Source: Elusimicrobia bacterium CG1_02_37_114
Lineage (GTDB): Bacteria; Elusimicrobiota; Endomicrobiia; CG1-02-37-114
Direction of reading: 5' to 3'
Assembly (NCBI GenBank): GCA_001871125.1
Contig: MNXB01000117.1
Coordinates: forward strand, 5,654 to 69,653
Length of the DNA: 64,000 nt
The notes below the pieces were generated by a model, which ran no database searches, was not told the origin of the DNA, and saw only the letters and a program-made list of their open reading frames with translations. Below are positions 5,171-56,428 of the stretch, piece by piece. The first letter of the stretch is position 1. Each line of letters opens with the position of its first letter. The translations under genes and the position numbers were made by a program.

Positions 5171-5200
5171 ATCTAATTTATCCGCAGGATTATCTTATTT

Positions 5201-6490
5201 ATGCAGAAATATCTTTTTGCCGGTGAAAACAAAGCGGGTAGTTTAGAACAGCCTCTGGCCGCAAAATTCGTTCCGGATAACCTTGACGGTTTCTATGGCC
5301 AGGAACACATTGTAGACAGGGACAGGTTATTGAACCGTGCAATTTTGTCTGACAGAGTCGGTTCTATAATATTTTTTGGACCTTCAGGGACAGGCAAAAC
5401 CGCACTGGCAAAGATTATTTCAAAGCACACTAAATCTTATTTCATTGAAACAAATGCCGTTATTATCGGTGTTGCTGATATAAAGAAAATTGTTGAACAG
5501 GCAGAGGTAAGACAGAAAGCATATAATCAGAGGACAATACTTCTGCTGGACGAAATCCATCACTTTAACCGCACCCAGCAGGATGCATTACTGCCCTATG
5601 TAGAGAAAGGCGTAATAAGCATGATTGGGATAACCACTGAAAATCCTTATTTCTATATAAACTCTGCACTTATTTCCAGGTCACTGGTGTTTGAATTCAA
5701 GCCACTGGCGGATGAATCTATTAGAAAAATAATAATTTCTGTATTAAACGATAAAGAAAGAGGGCTTGGTAAATACAGTGTAAAAATTACAGAAGATGCC
5801 GTAGAGCATATTATCAAATATTCAAACGGTGATGCCAGGAAAGCACTTAATGCAGTTGAAATAGGTGTGCTGACCACACCTCCTGACAGGGTCGGGAATA
5901 TAAATTTTGATTTGAAAACTGCAGAGGAATCAATACAGCATAAATCAGTCGTGTATGATAAATCCGGAGACGGGCATTACGACCATATATCTGCATTTAT
6001 AAAGTCAATCCGGGGCAGTGACCCCGACGCAGCGCTTTACTGGTTGACAAAAATGCTTGATGCGGGTGAAGACCCTAAATTTATTGCAAGACGTATCGTT
6101 ATTGCGGCAAGCGAGGATGTAGGGAATGCTGACCCCAATGCTCTCAACGTAGCCGTCTCAGCACTTCAATCAGTTGAATTTGTCGGTATGCCGGAAGCAA
6201 AAATTCCTTTAGCTCAGGCGTGCCTATACGTCTCCTGCGCACCAAAATCAAATGCTGTGTATAATGCTCTGTCTTCTGCTGAAGAAGAAGTGCAGAAGGG
6301 AAAGACACGGTCTGTGCCCGAGCATCTCAAGGATTCAAATGAGAGGTATTTATATCCTCATAATTACCCCGGACATTTCATTCCGCAGGAGTATATGCCG
6401 GAACATAAGATTTTCTACAAGCCGACTGAGCAGGGCTTTGAGGAAGAGATAAAAAAACGGTTAGAGCAATGGCGAAAGAAACAGGTTTAA
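5201..6490 (+). CDS. rarA: replication-associated recombination protein A (AAA+ ATPase RarA/MgsA)
   Basis: Walker A GPSGTGKT, Walker B LLLDEIHHFN, MgsA C-terminal domain. Confidence 0.9.
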   Translation: MQKYLFAGENKAGSLEQPLAAKFVPDNLDGFYGQEHIVDRDRLLNRAILSDRVGSIIFFGPSGTGKTALAKIISKHTKSYFIETNAVIIGVADIKKIVEQAEVRQKAYNQRTILLLDEIHHFNRTQQDALLPYVEKGVISMIGITTENPYFYINSALISRSLVFEFKPLADESIRKIIISVLNDKERGLGKYSVKITEDAVEHIIKYSNGDARKALNAVEIGVLTTPPDRVGNINFDLKTAEESIQHKSVVYDKSGDGHYDHISAFIKSIRGSDPDAALYWLTKMLDAGEDPKFIARRIVIAASEDVGNADPNALNVAVSALQSVEFVGMPEAKIPLAQACLYVSCAPKSNAVYNALSSAEEEVQKGKTRSVPEHLKDSNERYLYPHNYPGHFIPQEYMPEHKIFYKPTEQGFEEEIKKRLEQWRKKQV

Positions 6491-10815: not shown

Positions 10816-10861
10816 CCTCAACAAGTTGAGGATTCCCTTTGGAATCCCGAACTTGTTCGGG
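10816..10861. repeat. compound palindromic element (two hairpins CCTCAAC-AAG-TTGAGG and CCCGAAC-TTG-TTCGGG around GGATTCC..GGAATCC); likely terminator
   Basis: Perfect nested inverted repeats read directly. The same hairpin motifs form the ends of the 24.0 kb and 44.1 kb repeat elements. Confidence 0.6.
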
Positions 10862-19562: not shown

Positions 19563-19654
19563 ATCATATAGCGTATCTGCTATATTTATAGCATATAAAA
19601 CATATTAAGTCAAGGGGAGTTTTTAAAAGGGTTTTTAATAAGCACCCGCAGAGG

Positions 19655-20745
19655 TCTGGACAAACCGCCACTTTTTCTGAAATATTTCAAAAATGTTTTG
19701 CAGGTTTTTTTTCTACGCAACAGTAGAGAAGCTGTATAAAAGCATCGGAGAATTGAAGGTAGAGAACGACTGGCTTAAAAAAAATTGGATCTTTTGCGTT
19801 GAAAGACAAAATATCGCTCATTGACAAGAAAGATGATGAATTCAGCCAGCGGAAACAGTGCCTGCTGCTTGGTGTCAATTGGTCGACAATGCATTATAAA
19901 CCCGTCGGGATAAGACCTATTGACAGGGAAATGATGAACCTGCTGGACGACAAGTATACGTTACACCCGTTTTACGGTGTCCGCAAGATGAAAAAGTTCT
20001 TGAGGGAGAAAGGGTATAAGGTCGGCAATGGGCACGTAAGGACACTGCTGAGGAAAATGGGACTGTTCGCAGTGTTTGCGAAGCCGAATTTGTCGAAACC
20101 GCACCCTGAACACAAGGTATATCCATATCTGTTGAGAGATGTGGATATAATACGGCCGAATCAGGTTTGGAGTACAGATATAACCTATATACGGCTTGGA
20201 CAAGGATTTGCGTACCTTACGGCGGTAATTGACTGGCACAGCAGATGTATTCTCAGCTGGCGGATATCGAATACACTGGAAAGCAGTTTCTGTGTGGAAG
20301 CTCTGGAGGAAGCTATCAGGAACTATGGCTGTCCGGAGATATTCAATACGGACCATGGTAGCCAGTTTACGAGCGAGGATTTCATCGGGGCATTGACGGT
20401 GACGGGAAGGAACATCTCAATCAGCATGGACGGCAGAGGGAGAGCCCACGACAATATATTTGTAGAGAGGTTATGGCGTTCAGTGAAATACGAATGCATT
20501 TACTTGAATGGATACCAGAGCATTCCGGAGGCCAGAGAAGGGTTACGGACCTATTTTGAGTTTTACAACCGGGAACGGTATCATCAATCACTGGATTACG
20601 CCACTCCGTGGCAGATATATTCGGGGGTGTGTAATACCCTTGACGCAGTGACGAACGCGGCTTAAAACGAAAATGAGTGCGGGTTTTTCAGGCAGGGAAA
20701 AGAAGGAAACAGAAATTTCACGGTTCTTTCAAAAAACGGCGGCTT
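19655..20745 (+). mobile_element. IS3-family insertion sequence, 5'-truncated (orfA remnant + orfB)
   Basis: OrfA C-terminal leucine-zipper remnant (..ELKVENDWLKK), A8 slippery run at 19777-19784, orfB in the -1 frame. Candidate imperfect terminal inverted repeats TCTGGACAAACCGCCACTTTT (19655) and AAAACGGCGGCTTACGACAGA (20725). Confidence 0.5.
19799..20665 (+). CDS. IS3-family transposase OrfB (DDE integrase core)
   Basis: rve-domain motifs (WSTDITYIRL, VIDWHSRCIL, HTDHGSQFTS, YNRERYHQSL). Confidence 0.9.
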   Translation: MKDKISLIDKKDDEFSQRKQCLLLGVNWSTMHYKPVGIRPIDREMMNLLDDKYTLHPFYGVRKMKKFLREKGYKVGNGHVRTLLRKMGLFAVFAKPNLSKPHPEHKVYPYLLRDVDIIRPNQVWSTDITYIRLGQGFAYLTAVIDWHSRCILSWRISNTLESSFCVEALEEAIRNYGCPEIFNTDHGSQFTSEDFIGALTVTGRNISISMDGRGRAHDNIFVERLWRSVKYECIYLNGYQSIPEAREGLRTYFEFYNRERYHQSLDYATPWQIYSGVCNTLDAVTNAA

Positions 20746-20854
20746 ACGACAGAAAAACATTTACACCTTAACAAAGACTAAAAACTGGTCTTGACAAACC
20801 CGACCACTTTAATTTTTTACCCCTACCATTTACTTGTGAACTCCCGGCAGATTA

Positions 20855-24003: not shown

Positions 24004-24203
24004 TGGTTCTTCTGGTTTTATTGTAGAACAATATTTATGTTAATTTATTTATTGTTAACGGATTCTTATCCAAGCAAGTCTGAGTGCACAGACTTTGTCG
24101 CAACCGGATCCCCCAACTTGTTGGGGCTAAAAAATAACAAAATAAATCAAAACATGACAAACCTTGATAGTACTACCCGAACAAGTTCGGGATTCCAATG
24201 GTC
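24004..24203. repeat. about 200-bp intergenic repeat element, copy 1 (module A plus hairpin-ended module B)
   Basis: About 90 bp are near-identical to 44059-44150. The remaining about 110 bp are the reverse complement of 44151-44253. Confidence 0.6.
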
Positions 24204-24395
24204 AAGCATTGTGTGTAATTTCATTTTTAATTTTTAAAGGCTTATACTCCCAAGACTTATTTAATTTGTAAAATATAGCATAAACAATATGTTGTGGGAA
24301 ATAATGGGAAATTTTGAGGAATTTATAAAAACTATTTCCGGCATGATTTCATACAACAGTAAAAATTTTATGTTTGATAAATCAGAAATAAAAAA

Positions 24396-24482
24396 CGGAG
24401 AGGGAGGGATTCGAACCCCCGGTAGCCGTGAAGCCACACTGGTTTTCAAGACCAGCACCATAAACCACTCGGTCACCTCTCC
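24396..24482 (-). tRNA. tRNA-Ser (anticodon TGA)
   Basis: Manual fold: acceptor GGAGAGG/CCTCTCC, anticodon stem CTGGT/ACCAG, loop CTTGAAA, long variable arm, T-loop TTCGAAT. Confidence 0.9.
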
Positions 24483-24803
24483 GATTTGCCTTGCAAATCG
24501 CCCCCGAGTATTGTTTTGTACGCCTTAGGCGGATAAAACATCGTGGGGCTAAAATCCATCACTTTATAATACAATAATTCGGGTTTATTTTCAAGAATCG
24601 GAAAATGGAATATGGTCTCTTTTTAGAAAAATGTTAAATATCAAGAAAATTTGACTGGAATATTCTCTATACCCAAAACTTTACATATCTTTAAAAGAGT
24701 TCCTATATCCTGAAGCACCTTTGAATATTCTTCTTTGGGAAGCCGTTCTTTTATCAAATGTTCATATATCGTATCCCACTGTGTTTTGCAAAATGCAGTG
24801 TCA

Positions 24804-25205: not shown

Positions 25206-26570
25206 TTAAAAAATCCATTCAGAAGGAGAAGATTTATCTTTGAGTGTGTTTTTAATTTTCTCTCTATATTTCGGTACTAACGATAATTCGTTGTTATCAA
25301 TTTTGTCTTTCAATGATATAAGAGACTTTATCACTTCACGGGTTACTCTTTCATCGCTGTCACCGGCGAGGTTAAAAAGTATATCAAGGGTTTCCGGTTT
25401 GGCAATTTTTTCCAGTGCACGGACTACATTTGCTCTTATACCGACGTTTGGGTTATTAATCATTTCATTGAGAAAATTTAATGCAGTTTCTGGTGAATGT
25501 TTATATATATTATAGGCATGTGTGGCAATGCGGTCTCTTGCCTGTTCCAGAGTCGGTTGTAGGCCATAGACGCTCTTATCCGGCTCGGACTTTTCAGCTA
25601 ACCGCTGTAATTTTTCTTTTTGCTGTTCAGTAAGTAGTTTTTCTGTGCCTCTCTCAAATTCAAGTTCCTTTTTCAGTTTTTCATGTCCTTTGGAAAGATT
25701 TATCCTCAAAGTCTTTTCAAAATCAGCTCTCTGGTTGGCAAAGGAGATTTCGCTGATAATGCGAGTTTTTTCAAGTTCGTCCTGATGTATTTTTTTTGAC
25801 AAGTCCATCAATTCGGTTTCTTTTTTCTTAATTATATTTTTTAACCTTTTTGTGGTCATTAACAAACCTGATATGAGCAGAATAGAAAAGGCGGATACTA
25901 TTGTTACAAAAGTTTTGTATTTATTTAGTTTGTCTTTAACTCCCTGAATTTCAATCAGTATTTTCTCATTTTCCTGTTTTTGGGCCGATGTTTCCCTCAC
26001 TCTAATTGTCTTTACTTTTTGAGTTTCATCTGTTTTTTGGGATTTTTCTATAGTGCTCTGTTCAATGTGGGTATCCAGTTTTTTTGCTGGAGGATCAGGT
26101 TCCCTATCTATTTTAAATTTATCGGGTATTTCAAGCCTTTGCCTGGTGTCTGATTTTGTATCCTTCTTGCGCTCGGGATTAAGGATTTCATTGGTTATGC
26201 GGTATAATTCTTTCACCTCGTAATTGTTGGGCGCAATTTTCAGAGATTTGTTGATAAATTTCATTGATTCGAGATATTCATGTTTGGCATTATAATATTT
26301 CCCCGCCTCAATAAGTATTTTCAGTAAAAACTGTTTTGCCTGTGCGTTTTCCGGCTGTATTTCCAGCGCCTTTTCAAGGTTTTCTGTTGATTTTGCGTAA
26401 TCACCCTGAAGATATTTTTCTGTGGCGGCATTGAAATACATATCAAACTGTTCGGACGGTTCTGCAGAATATAAATAAGATAATCCTACGGATAAACAGG
26501 GATTTAAAAGCGATAAGGTAACCAGAAGCAATACAATAATAAACGGACTGTCCCGATGTCCTTTAATCAT
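25206..26570 (-). CDS. membrane-anchored TPR / HEAT-repeat protein
   Basis: Signal peptide, N-terminal TPR, one TM helix, coiled coil, C-terminal HEAT/PBS-lyase-like repeats. Confidence 0.6.
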   Translation of the reverse strand: MIKGHRDSPFIIVLLLVTLSLLNPCLSVGLSYLYSAEPSEQFDMYFNAATEKYLQGDYAKSTENLEKALEIQPENAQAKQFLLKILIEAGKYYNAKHEYLESMKFINKSLKIAPNNYEVKELYRITNEILNPERKKDTKSDTRQRLEIPDKFKIDREPDPPAKKLDTHIEQSTIEKSQKTDETQKVKTIRVRETSAQKQENEKILIEIQGVKDKLNKYKTFVTIVSAFSILLISGLLMTTKRLKNIIKKKETELMDLSKKIHQDELEKTRIISEISFANQRADFEKTLRINLSKGHEKLKKELEFERGTEKLLTEQQKEKLQRLAEKSEPDKSVYGLQPTLEQARDRIATHAYNIYKHSPETALNFLNEMINNPNVGIRANVVRALEKIAKPETLDILFNLAGDSDERVTREVIKSLISLKDKIDNNELSLVPKYREKIKNTLKDKSSPSEWIF

Positions 26571-28048: not shown

Positions 28049-28419
28049 AATAAATTTTCAATTTTTTCCTTTAGTAACCTTATCGGAAAAGGTTTCTCAA
28101 GATATGCCGAAATATTGACATTTTCTTTTAATTGCAGTAAATCCTTTAATCCTCCTCTGCCAGTCATAACAACAACGGGGATATTTGCAGTTTCCGGGTT
28201 TTTCTTAAGCTGAATGTTCAAAGAATGCCCGTCAAGTTTCGGCAACATTATGTCTAAAACAATAAGGTCAGGTTTTTCTTCATTTATTTTATCCAGAGCC
28301 TCCATCCCATCAAATGCAGCAGTTACTGTCCACCCGTCTCTTTCCAGAGCTATTTTTAAAGTTTCAACTATGTCCCTTTCGTCTTCAACGATTAAAATTT
28401 TACTCACGCTACCTCCCAT
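28036..28419 (-). CDS. single-domain response regulator (REC)
   Basis: ILIVEDERD...DLIVLDIMLPKLDG...K. Confidence 0.85.
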   Translation of the reverse strand: MGGSVSKILIVEDERDIVETLKIALERDGWTVTAAFDGMEALDKINEEKPDLIVLDIMLPKLDGHSLNIQLKKNPETANIPVVVMTGRGGLKDLLQLKENVNISAYLEKPFPIRLLKEKIENLLWGK

Positions 28420-28423
28420 TAAT

Positions 28424-28466
28424 CCCCCTTGCTTCCCCCTTTGTTAAAGGGGGATTGAGGAGGATT
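28424..28466. repeat. palindromic mini-repeat (CCCCCTTTGTTAAAGGGGG core)
   Basis: Hairpin between the Kelch gene stop and the REC gene start. A near-identical copy lies inside the HK gene at 36035-36075. Confidence 0.5.
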
Positions 28467-28474
28467 TTTAAAAT

Positions 28475-42055: not shown

Positions 42056-43942
42056 TTATTTACCCATTGCCCTATCTAAACCTGCAACTGCTGTATTATA
42101 ATCGTAAAGTGATTGCTGATAATTTAATTCTGCCTGTGTTAATGCCAACTGGACATCCCTGACTTCAAGGGACGACATAAGTCCCAGCGCATATCTCTTT
42201 TCTGCTATTTCAAGGTTATCTTTTGCAGTATCAACATTTTCTTTCTGCGCCTCAATACTCTTTTTTGCCTGTTCATAGTCATAATATGTCTTTTCCAGTT
42301 CTAATTCTATCATTTGTCTGACCTGAACAGATGAGAATTCAGTCTGTTTAAGGTTTGCCTTTGCCTGTCTCACTTTGCTGTAAGTGGAAAAACCGTTAAA
42401 AATAGAAATCTGGAAAACGAGTGATGCAGACCACCTATCGTCCCAGGTGGACCAGTCAGACGACCATTCCGCATTCTGTAAATCACGACTCCCGCTGACC
42501 AGTAATGACGGGCCGTATTCTGCCTTTGACATTTTTACCATACCTGACATAATTTTCTTTTGAAATTCTAATTGTCTTATCTCAGGACGATTCTTTAACC
42601 CGCTGTCTAACAAATCTTTGTAATTATAGTCCAGCGGTATATATTCTAATTCGCCTTTAAATTCCATGGACTTATCTTCAGAATTTATGACATTTAATAA
42701 TAACTGCTTTGCTAATTTTAATCCATTTTCCACCCTGAGTAAGTTCACTTTAGCATTTGAAACAGCAACCCTTGCCCTTGAAACATCGTAACCGGATGCC
42801 TTGCCTTCATTGTAAAGTGCCTGGGTAACCTTAAAATGGTTTTCACTGACAGCAAAACCTTCATCTGCAATCTCCAGCGTTTTCTCCGTAAGTAAATACC
42901 TGTAAAAACTTTCTTGAACATTATATATTAGGTCATTTTTTGTCTTTCTGTATTCTTCCTGTGTTACTTCGTAACCAAAATATGCCTGCCTGTTAACCTG
43001 GTAAAGTCTGCCTGACATAAACAACGGCTGTTGAAGTGCTAATTTGCCTCCATAAATTTCTGTTGAAGTCATAGCGGGACTGATATCAAAAGGCAATACC
43101 ATACCCGGGGGTAATTCAAAAGTAGGTTTGCTCAATTTAGTATAGGTTCCGCTGAGTGAAAGTTTCGGTAAAAGAGTTGAAAACGCTTCTAATTTTTTTG
43201 CCCTGGCTGATTTAATCTTCTGCTCGGCAACTTTTATCTGCGGGTTATTTTCCAGTGCTGACTTTATACAATCTTCTAAAGTAAATATACTCTGTGCAAA
43301 TAATGTCTGTGACAGCAAAAACAATGCAAGAATACAGATTGCAACAGTCCTTTTTGCGACACCATATAGAAATATATCCAGTAACTTCTTTTTATTAATA
43401 TTTTTACCCGTGGGAACGGACATTTCCTTAAATCCTTCAAATAAACTGCCGTGCACAAGAGATGTAAATACTATTGCATAAAACATGGGGTTGTCTTCTC
43501 TGAAAATACTTTCTTTTATACCCCTTTTCATTATCAATACTATTTCTGAAATCATAACTTCCATTTTCTTATGAAGTTCAATCTGCACGTCTTTTTCCAG
43601 GATTAAAGGTCCCTCGCGGTGCATAACAGAAAAAATTGAATTGTTACTATTTAGAAAAGATATAACCTCTTCTAACAGAAAAACCATCTGCTTTTTAAAA
43701 TCCACCTTCTTTGCCCGCACCCCCCTTATCTTATCAGCAAGTTCATCTAATAATTTATACAGAATTTGTGCCAGAAGATCTTTCTTGTCTTTGAAATAAA
43801 GATAGAACGTGCCCTTGCCAATACCTGCCTTCCGCGCAATATCTTCAATCAGGCACTGGTGATAGTCTTTAGTGCTGAATAGTTCCTTGGCAGATTCAAG
43901 AATTTTTAAACGGTGATTCTCCATAATTTCTTTTTTCTTCAA
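42056..43942 (-). CDS. in-frame ORF combining a TetR-family regulator (residues 1-173) and a TolC-like outer membrane factor (from ATG 43423)
   Basis: TetR HTH (ESAKELFSTKDYHQCLIEDIARKAGIGKGTFYLYF), then signal-like stretch VAKRTVAICILALFLLSQTLFAQ, then two TolC repeats. No stop separates the two parts. Confidence 0.75.
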   Translation of the reverse strand: MKKKEIMENHRLKILESAKELFSTKDYHQCLIEDIARKAGIGKGTFYLYFKDKKDLLAQILYKLLDELADKIRGVRAKKVDFKKQMVFLLEEVISFLNSNNSIFSVMHREGPLILEKDVQIELHKKMEVMISEIVLIMKRGIKESIFREDNPMFYAIVFTSLVHGSLFEGFKEMSVPTGKNINKKKLLDIFLYGVAKRTVAICILALFLLSQTLFAQSIFTLEDCIKSALENNPQIKVAEQKIKSARAKKLEAFSTLLPKLSLSGTYTKLSKPTFELPPGMVLPFDISPAMTSTEIYGGKLALQQPLFMSGRLYQVNRQAYFGYEVTQEEYRKTKNDLIYNVQESFYRYLLTEKTLEIADEGFAVSENHFKVTQALYNEGKASGYDVSRARVAVSNAKVNLLRVENGLKLAKQLLLNVINSEDKSMEFKGELEYIPLDYNYKDLLDSGLKNRPEIRQLEFQKKIMSGMVKMSKAEYGPSLLVSGSRDLQNAEWSSDWSTWDDRWSASLVFQISIFNGFSTYSKVRQAKANLKQTEFSSVQVRQMIELELEKTYYDYEQAKKSIEAQKENVDTAKDNLEIAEKRYALGLMSSLEVRDVQLALTQAELNYQQSLYDYNTAVAGLDRAMGK

Positions 43943-44058: not shown

Positions 44059-44253
44059 TGGTTCTTCAGGTTTTATTGTAGAACAATATTTATGTTAATT
44101 TATTGTTAACGGATTCTTATCCAAGCAAGTCTGAGTACACAGACTGTGTCATAATCCCATTGGAATCCCGAACTTGTTCGGGTAGTACTATCAAGTTTTG
44201 TCATGTTTTGATTTATTTTGTTATTTTTTAGCCCCAACAAGTTGGGGAATCCG
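44059..44253. repeat. about 200-bp intergenic repeat element, copy 2 (module A direct, module B inverted relative to copy 1)
   Basis: See 24004-24203. Internal inverted repeats TGTGTCAT...ATGACACA flank module B. Confidence 0.6.
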
Positions 44254-44398
44254 TCAGAATGACACAATCCTTGCAAATGTTAAGATTATGTAAAATTATC
44301 TATTCTTCTAAATATCTTAAACAAATGCATTCTAATGCATCTCTACAATAAAACCCGAAGAACCAGAATTTCTCAAAGAAATACCCGCATATTTTGCA

Positions 44399-54686: not shown

Positions 54687-54900
54687 TTTGTTTTATATTA
54701 CTATTTTTTCGTTGAAAATAGTGACATCTTTCTGCTAAATCGGATATTTTTTTAGCTTCCTTTAGATTTAAAATAGATTCTTTCAATAAAGATTCAACCT
54801 GAACGAAACCGACCTTCTTTTCTCTTAATTTACCATCATTTATTAGTTTTTTAATTAAATTAGATAATCCTGCGGATAAATTACTCAGGTTTTCCTGCAT
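54646..54900 (-). CDS. small basic/helical protein, partner of the HTH-nucleotidyltransferase
   Basis: 84 aa, overlaps both flanking genes. No canonical HEPN Rx4-6H motif. Confidence 0.35.
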   Translation of the reverse strand: MQENLSNLSAGLSNLIKKLINDGKLREKKVGFVQVESLLKESILNLKEAKKISDLAERCHYFQRKNSNIKQNEKKYIKKSFKIK

Positions 54901-56343: not shown

Positions 56344-56428
56344 CGTCCTGATGAATCAGGACGCTACATTTTATGATAAATCAAGACGCTACATTTTATG
56401 ATAAATCAAGACGCTACATTTTAAACTC
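56344..56428. repeat. hairpin CGTCCTGAT-GAA-TCAGGACG followed by a 3x tandem 25-bp repeat (CARGACGCTACATTTTATGATAAAT) in the acsE leader
   Basis: Read directly. On the minus strand the hairpin is followed by AAAAGGAGG-N6-ATG(acsE). Confidence 0.5.

What the first reader, a model, noticed from the sequence alone, without database searches (positions are those of the whole stretch)
24004..24203. About 200-bp composite intergenic repeat, one copy next to tRNA-Ser, with a module inverted between copies
Positions 24004-24095 are near-identical to 44059-44150 in direct orientation. This is module A, GGTTCTTC.GGTTTTATTGTAGAACAATATTTATGTTAATTTATT..GTTAACGGATTCTTATCCAAGCAAGTCTGAGT.CACAGAC. The following module B of about 110 bp ends in the hairpins CCCCAAC-TTG-TTGGGG and CCCGAAC-AAG-TTCGGG. 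In the second copy module B is the exact reverse complement of this one. Module B therefore has its own hairpin-containing terminal inverted repeats and behaves like an invertible or independently mobile MITE-like unit. The two copies lie 20 kb apart and bracket the whole envelope supercluster. No integrase is present, so an island boundary is unlikely. An invertible switch or miniature transposable element is the more likely reading.
Basis: seen in the sequence. Interest (0 to 1): 0.6.

Follow-up and report, generated by a model that had tools for sequence, protein, structure and literature searches.

The report
ISL3-type MITE with flipped hairpin core
The repeat is two copies, one complete and one truncated, of a small non-coding transposon relic whose ends match an ISL3-family insertion sequence and whose hairpin-bounded centre sits in opposite orientations in the two copies; it is ordinary genomic junk DNA, not a working genetic switch.

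Summary
Module A (24004-24099 and 44059-44150) is a direct repeat of about 93% identity. Module B (24105-24201 and 44157-44253) is inverted, with 95 of 97 bases matching, so it is not an exact reverse complement.

This repeat recurs inverted at 44342-44365. Copy 2 is therefore a complete element of about 305 bp with no ORF, and it folds as a nested hairpin.

The same 24 nt are the ends of a 1.56-kb ISL3-family insertion sequence. That IS occurs in metagenomes that also hold this organism. Copy 1 is the left arm plus B only.

B ends in two inverted GGAAT-headed hairpins. The same hairpins occur as doublets after xseB and after thrS. Related hairpins flank a RayT transposase gene in another genome, so they are REP-like.

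In a related strain, B and its linkers lie between inverted copies of the arm motif CAGNCTGTGTC. That accounts for both A-B junction types.

Orientation is fixed at each locus in every contig that spans B (10 at locus 1, 7 at locus 2). No invertase lies nearby, and both neighbouring genes have their own promoter-like sites. This is a MITE with a REPIN-like core that flipped once, not a switch. Genome-wide copy number could not be measured.

The parts
44060..44364 (+). Complete non-autonomous element (copy 2), about 305 bp: left arm A, centre B (inverted relative to copy 1), right arm C.
   Evidence: It is bounded by 24-nt terminal inverted repeats and holds no ORF of 80 aa or more. As single-stranded DNA it folds into a nested hairpin: -48.3 kcal/mol, z = -7.2.
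44059..44082 (+). Left terminal inverted repeat of copy 2, TGGTTCTTCAGGTTTTATTGTAGA.
   Evidence: It is identical to the ends of ISL3-family IS copies.
44342..44365 (-). Right terminal inverted repeat of copy 2, TGGTTCTTCGGGTTTTATTGTAGA on the minus strand.
   Evidence: The bases after the leading T (GGTTCTTCGGGTTTTATTGTAGA) are identical to both ends of the IS in L131/L161-L163.
44059..44150 (+). Module A, copy 2: the left arm. Its inner end is the motif CAGACTGTGTC at 44140-44150.
44157..44253 (-). Module B, copy 2 (reverse complement of copy 1). Hairpin CCCGAACTTGTTCGGG is at 44167-44182 and CCCCAACAAGTTGGGG at 44232-44247.
44254..44341 (+). Right arm C of copy 2. ATGACACA at 44259-44266 pairs with TGTGTCAT at 44146-44153. 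A 21-nt stretch that the related strain L130 keeps is absent here.
24004..24099 (+). Module A, copy 1: the left arm, with the terminal repeat at 24004-24027 and the inner motif CAGACTTTGTC at 24089-24099.
24100..24104 (+). Linker GCAAC, which travels with B's CCCCAAC end. It is also next to that end in L130.
24105..24201 (+). Module B, copy 1: two inverted REP-like hairpins (24111-24126 and 24176-24191) around a 49-nt AT-rich spacer. Copy 1 stops here, with no right arm and no right terminal repeat.
10816..10861 (+). REP-like hairpin doublet CCTCAACAAGTTGAGG-ATTCCCTTTGGAAT-CCCGAACTTGTTCGGG, lying between the xseB stop codon and the ispA start.
   Evidence: A second doublet lies after thrS at L132:4403-4448.

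Best explanation
The composite repeat is two copies of a miniature, non-coding derivative (MITE) of an ISL3-family insertion sequence.

Copy 2 (44060-44364) is complete. It has 24-nt terminal inverted repeats, two arms that are related at their outer and inner ends, and a centre, module B. Copy 1 (24004-24201) is a one-ended remnant: the left arm plus B.

Such an element would be moved in trans by an ISL3 DDE transposase that binds the terminal repeats. That step is inferred.

Module B is a pair of inverted, GGAAT-headed REP-type hairpins, which is the architecture of a REPIN. It sits in the loop of the element's long hairpin. With its short linkers, B lies between inverted copies of the arm-inner motif CAGNCTGTGTC.

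B was turned round once on an evolutionary time scale. This happened either by recombination or template switching between those short inverted repeats, or by re-insertion of the REPIN. These two routes are inferred and were not resolved.

The element is now fixed in one orientation at each locus. It most likely has no programmed function. Its visible effects are structural: it offers a substrate for rearrangement and marks a spot where metagenome assemblies break.
For: Shown:
- The 24-nt end of A recurs inverted at 44342-44365. There are 3 matches in the window against 0 expected.
- An exact-pattern scan of metagenomes with this end gave five stretches. Three are ends of IS copies. Two of these (L127 3685-5196 and L131 127-1688) carry a 408-aa transposase with Zn_ribbon_ISL3, HTH_Tnp_ISL3 and DDE_Tnp_ISL3 domains, at E 6e-70 to 6e-72. 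L128 shows only a left end that matches L131. Twelve more IS copies have the same ends.
- L127 has an 8-9 bp target duplication, TCATTTTA(T).
- The IS with ends identical to copy 2's right end (protein P0001) occurs in sample 3300025021, which also holds this organism. It also occurs in ENA analysis ERZ27293347, whose accession number falls in the same range as those that hold the organism.
- L129 is a separate 302-bp element with the same ends and a different hairpin-rich core.
- Copy 2 folds as a nested hairpin with z = -7.2.
- The hairpins form a dispersed family: 8 hairpins at 4 intergenic sites in about 76 kb. Their stems vary only by compensatory changes (CCCC/GGGG, CCCG/CGGG, CCTC/GAGG), and each has a GGAAT-type head.
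- In L085, hairpins with the same GAAC-AAG-TTC apex and TTCC tail flank a 179-aa Y1_Tnp protein on both sides (E 1.4e-11). JGI names several of that protein's homologues RayT.
- In L130, a strain about 2% diverged at locus 2, the linker and arm motif CAGTCTGTGTCGCAAC sit next to B's CCCCAAC end. Copy 1's A-B junction has the same sequence (14 of 16 bases). The other side of B carries the inverted arm motif (10 of 11). A flip between these repeats gives both observed junction types.
- Orientation is invariant in every contig that spans B.
- No Rfam family matches either region with E below 0.07.
Against: - No target-site duplication flanks copy 2 (TGGTTCTT against AGAATTTC) or L129.
- No empty site and no third copy of A was found. 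A genome-wide census was impossible, because both large DNA scans were uninformative for this organism.
- Neither the ISL3 transposase nor a RayT was shown to be in this organism's genome.
- Copy 1's right junction does not show the sequence a simple flip predicts (GATTAT plus the inverted arm motif). An extra truncation has to be assumed.
- The arm motif is itself palindromic. Its two copies in L130 read equally well as a 10/10 direct repeat, which could be a target duplication of an inserted B.
Confidence: 0.6

Rival explanations
1. Module B is an independently mobile REPIN, a RayT-mobilised pair of inverted REPs. It inserted separately, or excised and re-inserted, into the palindromic centre of two copies of the ISL3-type element, once in each orientation.
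For: - B has REPIN architecture and folds as one long hairpin, with z = -2.9 and -4.4 on the two strands.
- The same hairpins occur away from A at two other sites.
- Related hairpins flank a RayT-type gene in L085.
- In L130, B plus its linkers is flanked by a 10/10 direct repeat, CAGTCTGTGT.
- B is slightly more conserved between the copies than A is (98% against 93%).
Against: - B's 49-nt interior was seen only next to A.
- Two insertions at the same nucleotide of two A copies would be needed.
- From general knowledge, HUH/Y1 transposases do not make target duplications.
- No RayT was found for this organism.
Confidence: 0.25
2. Module B is a programmed invertible DNA switch. It would carry a promoter that is ON toward AbiEi/AbiEii at locus 1 and OFF for the TetR/TolC efflux operon at locus 2, and would be flipped by a recombinase acting on the flanking inverted repeats.
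For: - Short inverted repeats flank B: TGTGTCAT/ATGACACA in the window and 10 of 11 bases in L130.
- B contains a TTGTCA-18-TATTTT promoter-like site that points at AbiEi in copy 1 and away from TetR in copy 2.
- 19 of the 21 HlyD-carrying contigs accounted for (10 shown plus 11 listed as similar) end inside copy 2.
Against: - No contig spanning B has the alternative orientation at either locus, and one of these contigs is a diverged strain.
- No invertase or integrase gene was seen in the window, in the 8-10 kb read to its left or in the 2.7 kb read to its right.
- The promoter match is 9 of 12, and such sites are as common in shuffled sequence (4 found against 2.5-2.9 expected).
- Both genes have their own promoter-like sites outside the element. 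The TetR one is a 12/12 match next to an operator-like palindrome.
- The contig ends match the window exactly and are better explained by strain variants such as L130.
Confidence: 0.05
3. The two copies are attachment-site or boundary repeats of a 20-kb integrated island, or simply an old segmental duplication unrelated to any mobile element.
For: - The A modules are direct repeats 20 kb apart.
- Copy 1 is next to a tRNA-Ser that serves as an integration hot spot in variant L010.
Against: - The 20 kb between the copies holds signalling and envelope genes (MscL, TPR and Kelch-repeat proteins, response regulators and histidine kinases, an RND efflux system) and no integrase.
- The L010 island lies on the other side of the tRNA and leaves A and B untouched.
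- A's end is a transposon terminal repeat that is also found on IS copies and on another MITE in unrelated contigs. A plain duplication would not explain that.
Confidence: 0.04
4. The element encodes a small RNA or a cis-regulatory leader for the downstream genes.
For: In both copies A has the same orientation relative to the downstream minus-strand gene. The element is rich in hairpins.
Against: - No Rfam match reaches gathering score, and the best E-value is 0.075.
- Inversion of B would destroy any transcript that spans A and B.
- A on its own does not fold better than shuffled sequence (z = -0.9 and -1.1).
- Neither hairpin is followed by a run of T on either strand.
- The downstream genes differ in kind (a toxin-antitoxin pair and an efflux operon), and their promoter-like sites lie between the element and the gene.
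Confidence: 0.04

Closest known systems
Prokaryotic MITEs derived from insertion sequences (here from an ISL3-family IS)
   Same: It is small (about 305 bp) and has no ORF. Its 24-nt terminal inverted repeats are identical to those of a full IS that carries an ISL3 transposase. It is intergenic, its core is unrelated to the IS interior, and it folds into a strong hairpin. The definition used is that of the review PMC10969869.
   Different: No target-site duplication is detectable. Only one complete and one truncated copy were seen in this organism. Mobility is not demonstrated: no empty site was found. The parent IS was not shown to be in the same genome.
REP sequences and REPINs mobilised by RayT (HUH/Y1) transposases; BIME-type mosaics of E. 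coli (from general knowledge)
   Same: The hairpins are short, GC-rich and extragenic, with a conserved head (GGAAT) and compensatory stem changes. They occur as inverted pairs that form a larger hairpin, and they are arranged as a mosaic with other motifs. Related hairpins flank a RayT-type gene in L085.
   Different: The head is GGAAT rather than the GTAG of enterobacterial REPs. Copy number and a cognate RayT in this genome are unknown. Here the pair sits inside a DDE-transposon MITE.
Small hairpin-associated inversions, in which the loop between short inverted repeats flips (described for chloroplast non-coding DNA; from general knowledge)
   Same: A segment of about 108 nt between inverted repeats of 8-11 bp differs in orientation between copies. 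The stems stay in place, and both junction types are those a flip between the repeats predicts.
   Different: The event is inferred from two paralogous copies and one strain variant, not from orthologous loci. One junction of copy 1 does not fit the prediction.
Correia repeat-enclosed elements of Neisseria and BOX elements of pneumococcus: modular intergenic repeats (from general knowledge)
   Same: These are modular, hairpin-forming intergenic repeats bounded by inverted repeats. Their variants differ in which modules they carry and how the modules are arranged.
   Different: There is no sequence similarity, the parent transposase family is different, and no regulatory effect has been shown here.

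Membership tests
MITE (miniature inverted-repeat transposable element) | Small size (50-500 bp) with no transposase ORF | tested here: met
   Copy 2 is about 305 bp (44060-44364) and has no ORF of 80 aa or more inside it. The size criterion comes from PMC10969869.
MITE (miniature inverted-repeat transposable element) | Terminal inverted repeats | tested here: met
   The 24-nt ends at 44059-44082 and 44342-44365 agree at 23 of 24 positions. Copy 1 has only the left one.
MITE (miniature inverted-repeat transposable element) | Terminal repeats shared with an autonomous IS that could mobilise it | tested here: met
   The ends are identical to those of ISL3-family IS copies L127, L131 and L152-L163. 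The IS is present in a sample that also holds this organism. Presence in the same genome was not shown.
MITE (miniature inverted-repeat transposable element) | Target-site duplication flanking the element | tested here: not met
   The flanks of copy 2 are TGGTTCTT and AGAATTTC. L129 also lacks a duplication.
MITE (miniature inverted-repeat transposable element) | Multiple copies, or presence/absence polymorphism showing mobility | tested here: inconclusive
   About 76 kb of this genome holds one complete and one truncated copy, and one unrelated contig (L129) holds another element with the same ends. No empty site was seen in about 40 contigs. The genome and metagenome scans gave no census for this organism.
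ISL3-family insertion sequence (parent element, outside the window) | DDE_Tnp_ISL3 transposase between the terminal repeats | tested here: met
   L131 and L127 encode a 408-aa protein with PF14690, PF13542 and PF01610 domains, at E 6e-70 to 6e-72. No such gene is in the window.
ISL3-family insertion sequence (parent element, outside the window) | 8-bp AT-rich target duplication (family trait, from general knowledge) | tested here: inconclusive
   L127 has TCATTTTA(T) on both sides, and L156 has a 6-bp repeat. The other metagenomic IS contigs show none, and their flanks may be chimeric.
REP / REPIN (RayT-associated) | Short GC-rich extragenic palindromes with a conserved head and compensatory stem variation | tested here: met
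   Eight hairpins lie at 4 intergenic sites. The stems are CCCC/GGGG, CCCG/CGGG and CCTC/GAGG, and the head is GGAAT, GGATT or GGATC.
REP / REPIN (RayT-associated) | Inverted pair of REPs that folds into one long hairpin (REPIN) | tested here: met
   In the predicted fold, B's two ends pair with each other: -26.6 and -37 kcal/mol, z = -2.9 and -4.4. The doublet at 10816-10861 folds the same way.
REP / REPIN (RayT-associated) | Tens to hundreds of copies per genome | not testable with these tools
   Only about 76 kb of this genome could be read, and it holds 4 sites.
REP / REPIN (RayT-associated) | Cognate RayT (Y1/HUH transposase) gene in the same genome, flanked by the REPs | not testable with these tools
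   There is none in the window or in the flanks that were read. In another genome (L085) related hairpins flank a Y1_Tnp gene.
Invertible promoter switch (inverton) | Both orientations present at one locus in a population | tested here: not met
   Locus 1 has one orientation in 10 of 10 contigs. Locus 2 has one orientation in all 7 contigs that span B, including the diverged strain L130. Only assembled consensus sequences were compared, not reads.
Invertible promoter switch (inverton) | Site-specific recombinase gene nearby | tested here: not met
   The gene tables for the window, the 8-10 kb read to its left and the 2.7 kb read to its right list no serine or tyrosine recombinase. There is only an IS3-type rve remnant at 19799-20665.
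Invertible promoter switch (inverton) | Inverted repeats flanking a promoter-bearing segment | tested here: inconclusive
   Inverted repeats of 8-11 bp are present. The internal promoter-like site is a 9/12 match and not enriched over shuffled sequence.

The most novel reading that the evidence does not exclude
The GGAAT-headed hairpins with an AAC-TTG-TT apex could belong to a single REP/RayT lineage shared across phyla: this diderm groundwater MAG, several Chloroflexota and Campylobacterota. Its REPINs would then home into the palindromic centre of ISL3-type MITEs in either orientation, so that one class of non-autonomous element parasitises another. A rarer variant of this reading is that B still flips at low frequency and redirects a weak outward promoter.
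Probability: 0.12. Interest if true: 0.5.

Novelty: new member of a known kind. Interest (0 to 1): 0.25.

Why it matters
The main value is for annotation and assembly. The element explains a striking repeat without invoking a switch or an island boundary. It also marks the position where most metagenome assemblies of this organism break.

It documents an ISL3-derived MITE and a REP-like hairpin family in an uncultivated lineage. It gives a clear example of how a nested palindrome can present its centre in either orientation.

The cross-phylum recurrence of the same hairpin types, with a RayT-flanked example, is a modest lead for anyone studying how REP/RayT systems spread.

Tried and rejected
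- The genome-contig scan used GGAWYCCNNAACTTGTTNNGG. Its hits were reused later.
- The metagenome scan with the 24-nt end gave only 5 stretches. The collection evidently lacks most samples that hold this organism, so the absence of further copies means nothing.
- Viral-contig scans with the terminal repeat and with the hairpin gave 0 hits.
- Rfam gave only tRNAs at gathering score, and nothing credible in the two regions at E up to 1.
- The IS3-type remnant at 19.6-20.8 kb is not the parent of the element, because its ends are unrelated.
- A search for a right arm or right terminal repeat of copy 1 found nothing above shuffled sequence. No terminal repeat appears even with 5 mismatches allowed.
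- Target-site duplications were looked for at copy 2 and L129 and not found.
- The ends of about 20 contigs that stop in copy 2 were checked for the alternative orientation. All are 100% identical to the window.
- An E. coli RayT sequence recalled from memory was used only as a probe in tblastn. The one useful hit was then confirmed independently with Pfam.
- A protein search seeded with the L085 RayT returned only Campylobacterota-type relatives. None could be assigned to this organism.
- Literature searches for the hairpin sequences and for the assembly accession found nothing.
- The organism's taxonomy could not be established with the tools. That the samples come from the Crystal Geyser aquifer is my recollection and was not tested.

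Full report
**1. Observation**

- Module A (24004-24099 and 44059-44150) is a direct repeat with three substitutions and one 4-nt indel, 92.7% identity.
- Module B (24105-24201 and 44157-44253) is inverted. It is 97 nt long with 95 of 97 bases matching, so it is close to an exact reverse complement but not exact.
- B's ends are the hairpins CCCCAAC-TTG-TTGGGG and CCCGAAC-AAG-TTCGGG.
- Chance does not explain any of this. The hairpin pattern gives 6 matches against 0.47 expected, and the A core gives 2 against 0.

**2. Surroundings**

All flanking genes are on the minus strand.
- Copy 1 lies about 190 nt downstream of tRNA-Ser(UGA) (24395-24483) and about 146 nt upstream of an AbiEi/AbiEii toxin-antitoxin pair.
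- Copy 2 lies 34 nt downstream of the stop codon of a DUF4143/AAA ATPase gene. It is upstream of a TetR/TolC-HlyD-AcrB efflux operon.
- Both downstream genes have their own promoter-like sites between the element and the start codon.
- The TetR site is a 12/12 TTGACA-17-TATAAT match at 44018-43990. An operator-like palindrome, ATGACTGAC-CA-GTCAGTCAT, sits next to it.
- The element is therefore an intergenic insertion, not the native control region.

**3. What module A is**

A begins with TGGTTCTTCNGGTTTTATTGTAGA. This 24-mer recurs a third time, inverted, at 44342-44365. That makes 3 matches in the window against 0 expected.

Copy 2 is therefore a complete unit of about 305 bp (44060-44364) with no ORF, bounded by terminal inverted repeats. 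As single-stranded DNA it folds into one nested hairpin: -48.3 kcal/mol against -23.4 for shuffled sequence, z = -7.2.

An exact scan of metagenome contigs with this 24-mer returned five stretches.
- L131 (127-1688) and L127 (3685-5196) are 1.5-kb insertion sequences with this repeat at both ends.
- Each carries a 408-aa transposase with Zn_ribbon_ISL3, HTH_Tnp_ISL3 and DDE_Tnp_ISL3 domains, at E 6e-70 and 6e-72.
- L127 has an 8-9 bp target duplication.
- L128 is another IS left end.
- L129 is a different 302-bp element with the same ends and no ORF, and with another hairpin-rich core.
- L130 is locus 2 of a related strain.

Twelve further IS copies, fetched through transposase homologues, have the same ends. 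The IS whose ends are identical to copy 2's right end is in sample 3300025021, which also holds this organism. It is also in ERZ27293347, whose accession number falls in the same range as the ENA analyses that hold the organism.

Only the ends are shared between the IS and modules A and C. I conclude that A is the left arm of an ISL3-type MITE.

Copy 1 has no right arm and no right terminal repeat. It is a truncated, one-ended remnant.

**4. What module B is**

Each end of B is a 16-nt hairpin preceded by a GGAAT-type head, and the two face outward.

The same units occur at two other intergenic places as tail-to-tail doublets.
- One is at 10816-10861, between xseB and ispA.
- The other is at L132:4403-4448, after thrS and just left of the window.

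That makes eight hairpins at four sites in about 76 kb. The stems differ only by compensatory changes. B's two ends pair with each other in the predicted fold. This is the anatomy of REP sequences and of REPINs.

The otherwise wasted genome scan supplied two pieces of support.
- 72 of its 116 matches have complementary variable positions, against 1 in 16 expected by chance. The same three hairpin types are multi-copy in several Chloroflexota MAGs. Thermoflexus L054 has the same doublet as 10816-10861.
- In a Campylobacterales MAG (L085), hairpins with the same GAAC-AAG-TTC apex and TTCC tail flank a 179-aa Y1_Tnp protein on both sides. The protein has an HIH motif, and JGI calls several of its homologues 'REP element-mobilizing transposase RayT'.

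Whether the window's organism has such a gene could not be tested.

**5. Why B is inverted**

I aligned the three available junction sets with B in the forward orientation.

The related strain L130 keeps 21 nt that the window's copy 2 has lost. In L130, B's CCCCAAC end is preceded by CAGTCTGTGTC-GCAAC. Copy 1's A-B junction has the same motif and linker, CAGACTTTGTC-GCAAC, with 14 of 16 bases matching. B's other end in L130 is followed by GATTAT-GACACAGTCTG, which is the inverted arm motif.

So B plus its linkers sits between inverted copies of the inner end of the element's arms: 10 of 11 bases, or 17 of 23 if extended. A flip between these repeats converts the copy-2 junction (A-ATAATC-P2 end) into the copy-1 junction (A-GCAAC-P1 end).

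Two things prevent a firm choice of mechanism.
- The arm motif ACACAGNCTGTGT is itself palindromic. The same two copies therefore also read as a 10/10 direct repeat, which is what a target duplication of an inserted B would look like.
- Copy 1 ends exactly at B, so its right junction cannot be checked.

I therefore treat 'flip between short inverted repeats' and 're-insertion of a REPIN' as two versions of a single past event.

**6. Is it a switch?**

I found no evidence that it is.
- Locus 1 has the window's orientation in 10 of 10 contigs, which come from nine samples plus an NCBI MAG.
- Locus 2 has its own orientation in all seven contigs that span B, including L130. The other contigs end inside copy 2 and are 100% identical to the window up to their ends.
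- No serine or tyrosine recombinase gene is in the window, in the 8-10 kb read to its left or in the 2.7 kb read to its right.
- The promoter-like site in B is a 9/12 match, and such sites are not enriched over shuffled sequence.

Of the 21 HlyD-carrying contigs accounted for (10 shown plus 11 listed as similar), 19 end inside copy 2. Their ends are identical to the window, and several fall next to the indels that distinguish L130. Strain heterogeneity is thus the simplest cause. Only read mapping could exclude a minority orientation.

**7. Other readings rejected**

- No Rfam family fits either region.
- A alone does not fold better than shuffled sequence.
- The 20 kb between the copies has no integrase and holds signalling and envelope genes.
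- The integrase island seen in variant L010 lies on the far side of the tRNA-Ser and leaves the element untouched.

**8. Weak points**

- No target duplication flanks copy 2 or L129.
- No empty site was found.
- No genome-wide count was possible.
- Neither the ISL3 transposase nor a RayT was placed in this genome.

The MITE assignment rests on the terminal repeats, size, lack of coding capacity, fold and the matching IS. The REP assignment rests on anatomy, dispersal and the RayT-flanked relatives elsewhere.

**9. Verdict**

This is a real and well-defined repeat. It is a new member of known kinds, an ISL3-derived MITE with a REPIN-like core, and its centre has been turned round once. It is of low to moderate interest.

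Noticed in passing
window 42056-43942 (minus strand): A TetR_N regulator domain and a complete TolC-type outer-membrane factor (OEP) lie in one uninterrupted ORF of 622-628 aa. The TolC signal peptide (AKRTVAICILALFLLSQTLFAQS) follows the TetR C-terminus in frame with no stop codon, and a possible internal GTG start precedes it. The same fused ORF is called in more than 10 assemblies.
   Followed up: partly
L010:1-2923 (corresponds to window just above 24483): In one assembly (ERZ27293349), an island with a tyrosine integrase, an N6/N4 DNA methyltransferase and a ParB-like gene abuts the 5' end of an intact tRNA-Ser. It replaces the MscL side of the window. The A+B element and AbiE are unchanged.
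   Followed up: partly
L016-L126 (genome contigs), e.g. L054:664-705, L039:4143-4186, L085:88-895: Hairpins of the same type as in module B are multi-copy in several Chloroflexota MAGs and in Campylobacterota. They share the GGAAT head and AAC-TTG-TT apex and have complementary variable stems. Thermoflexus L054 has the same two-hairpin doublet as window 10816-10861. In L085 such hairpins flank a RayT-type Y1 transposase gene.
   Followed up: partly
L129:63-363: A 302-bp element from an unrelated metagenome contig has the same ISL3-type ends. Its core is built from four copies of a different REP-like unit: TGTAGCGGT followed by a variable-stem hairpin with an ATTTAT loop.
   Followed up: no
window 5174-5201 (+), 26471-26496 (-), 54856-54883 (-): A 26-28 nt motif, TAATTTATCCGCAGGATTATCTTATTTA, occurs three times at 96% identity. 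At 5201 it runs straight into the ATG of an MgsA/RarA-type ATPase gene. It may be a shared promoter or leader.
   Followed up: no
window 56349-56423: Three tandem 25-nt repeats, TGATRAATCARGACGCTACATTTTA, lie in an intergenic stretch.
   Followed up: no
window 28417-28469 and 36018-36070: A 53-nt repeat (75% identity) is centred on the hairpin CCCCCTTTNTTAAAGGGGG. Both copies are next to response-regulator or histidine-kinase genes.
   Followed up: no
window 19600-20830: This is an IS3-family remnant. It has an rve-type integrase-core ORF (19799-20665) with no intact upstream orfA. Its ends are unrelated to the element studied.
   Followed up: partly
L136-L139, about 2.7 kb beyond the right end of the window: All four contigs shown on the right side (19 more are listed as similar) stop within 40 nt of one another. 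This suggests another repeat or a strain-variable junction there. Neither the terminal repeat nor the hairpin of the studied element is at that end.
   Followed up: no
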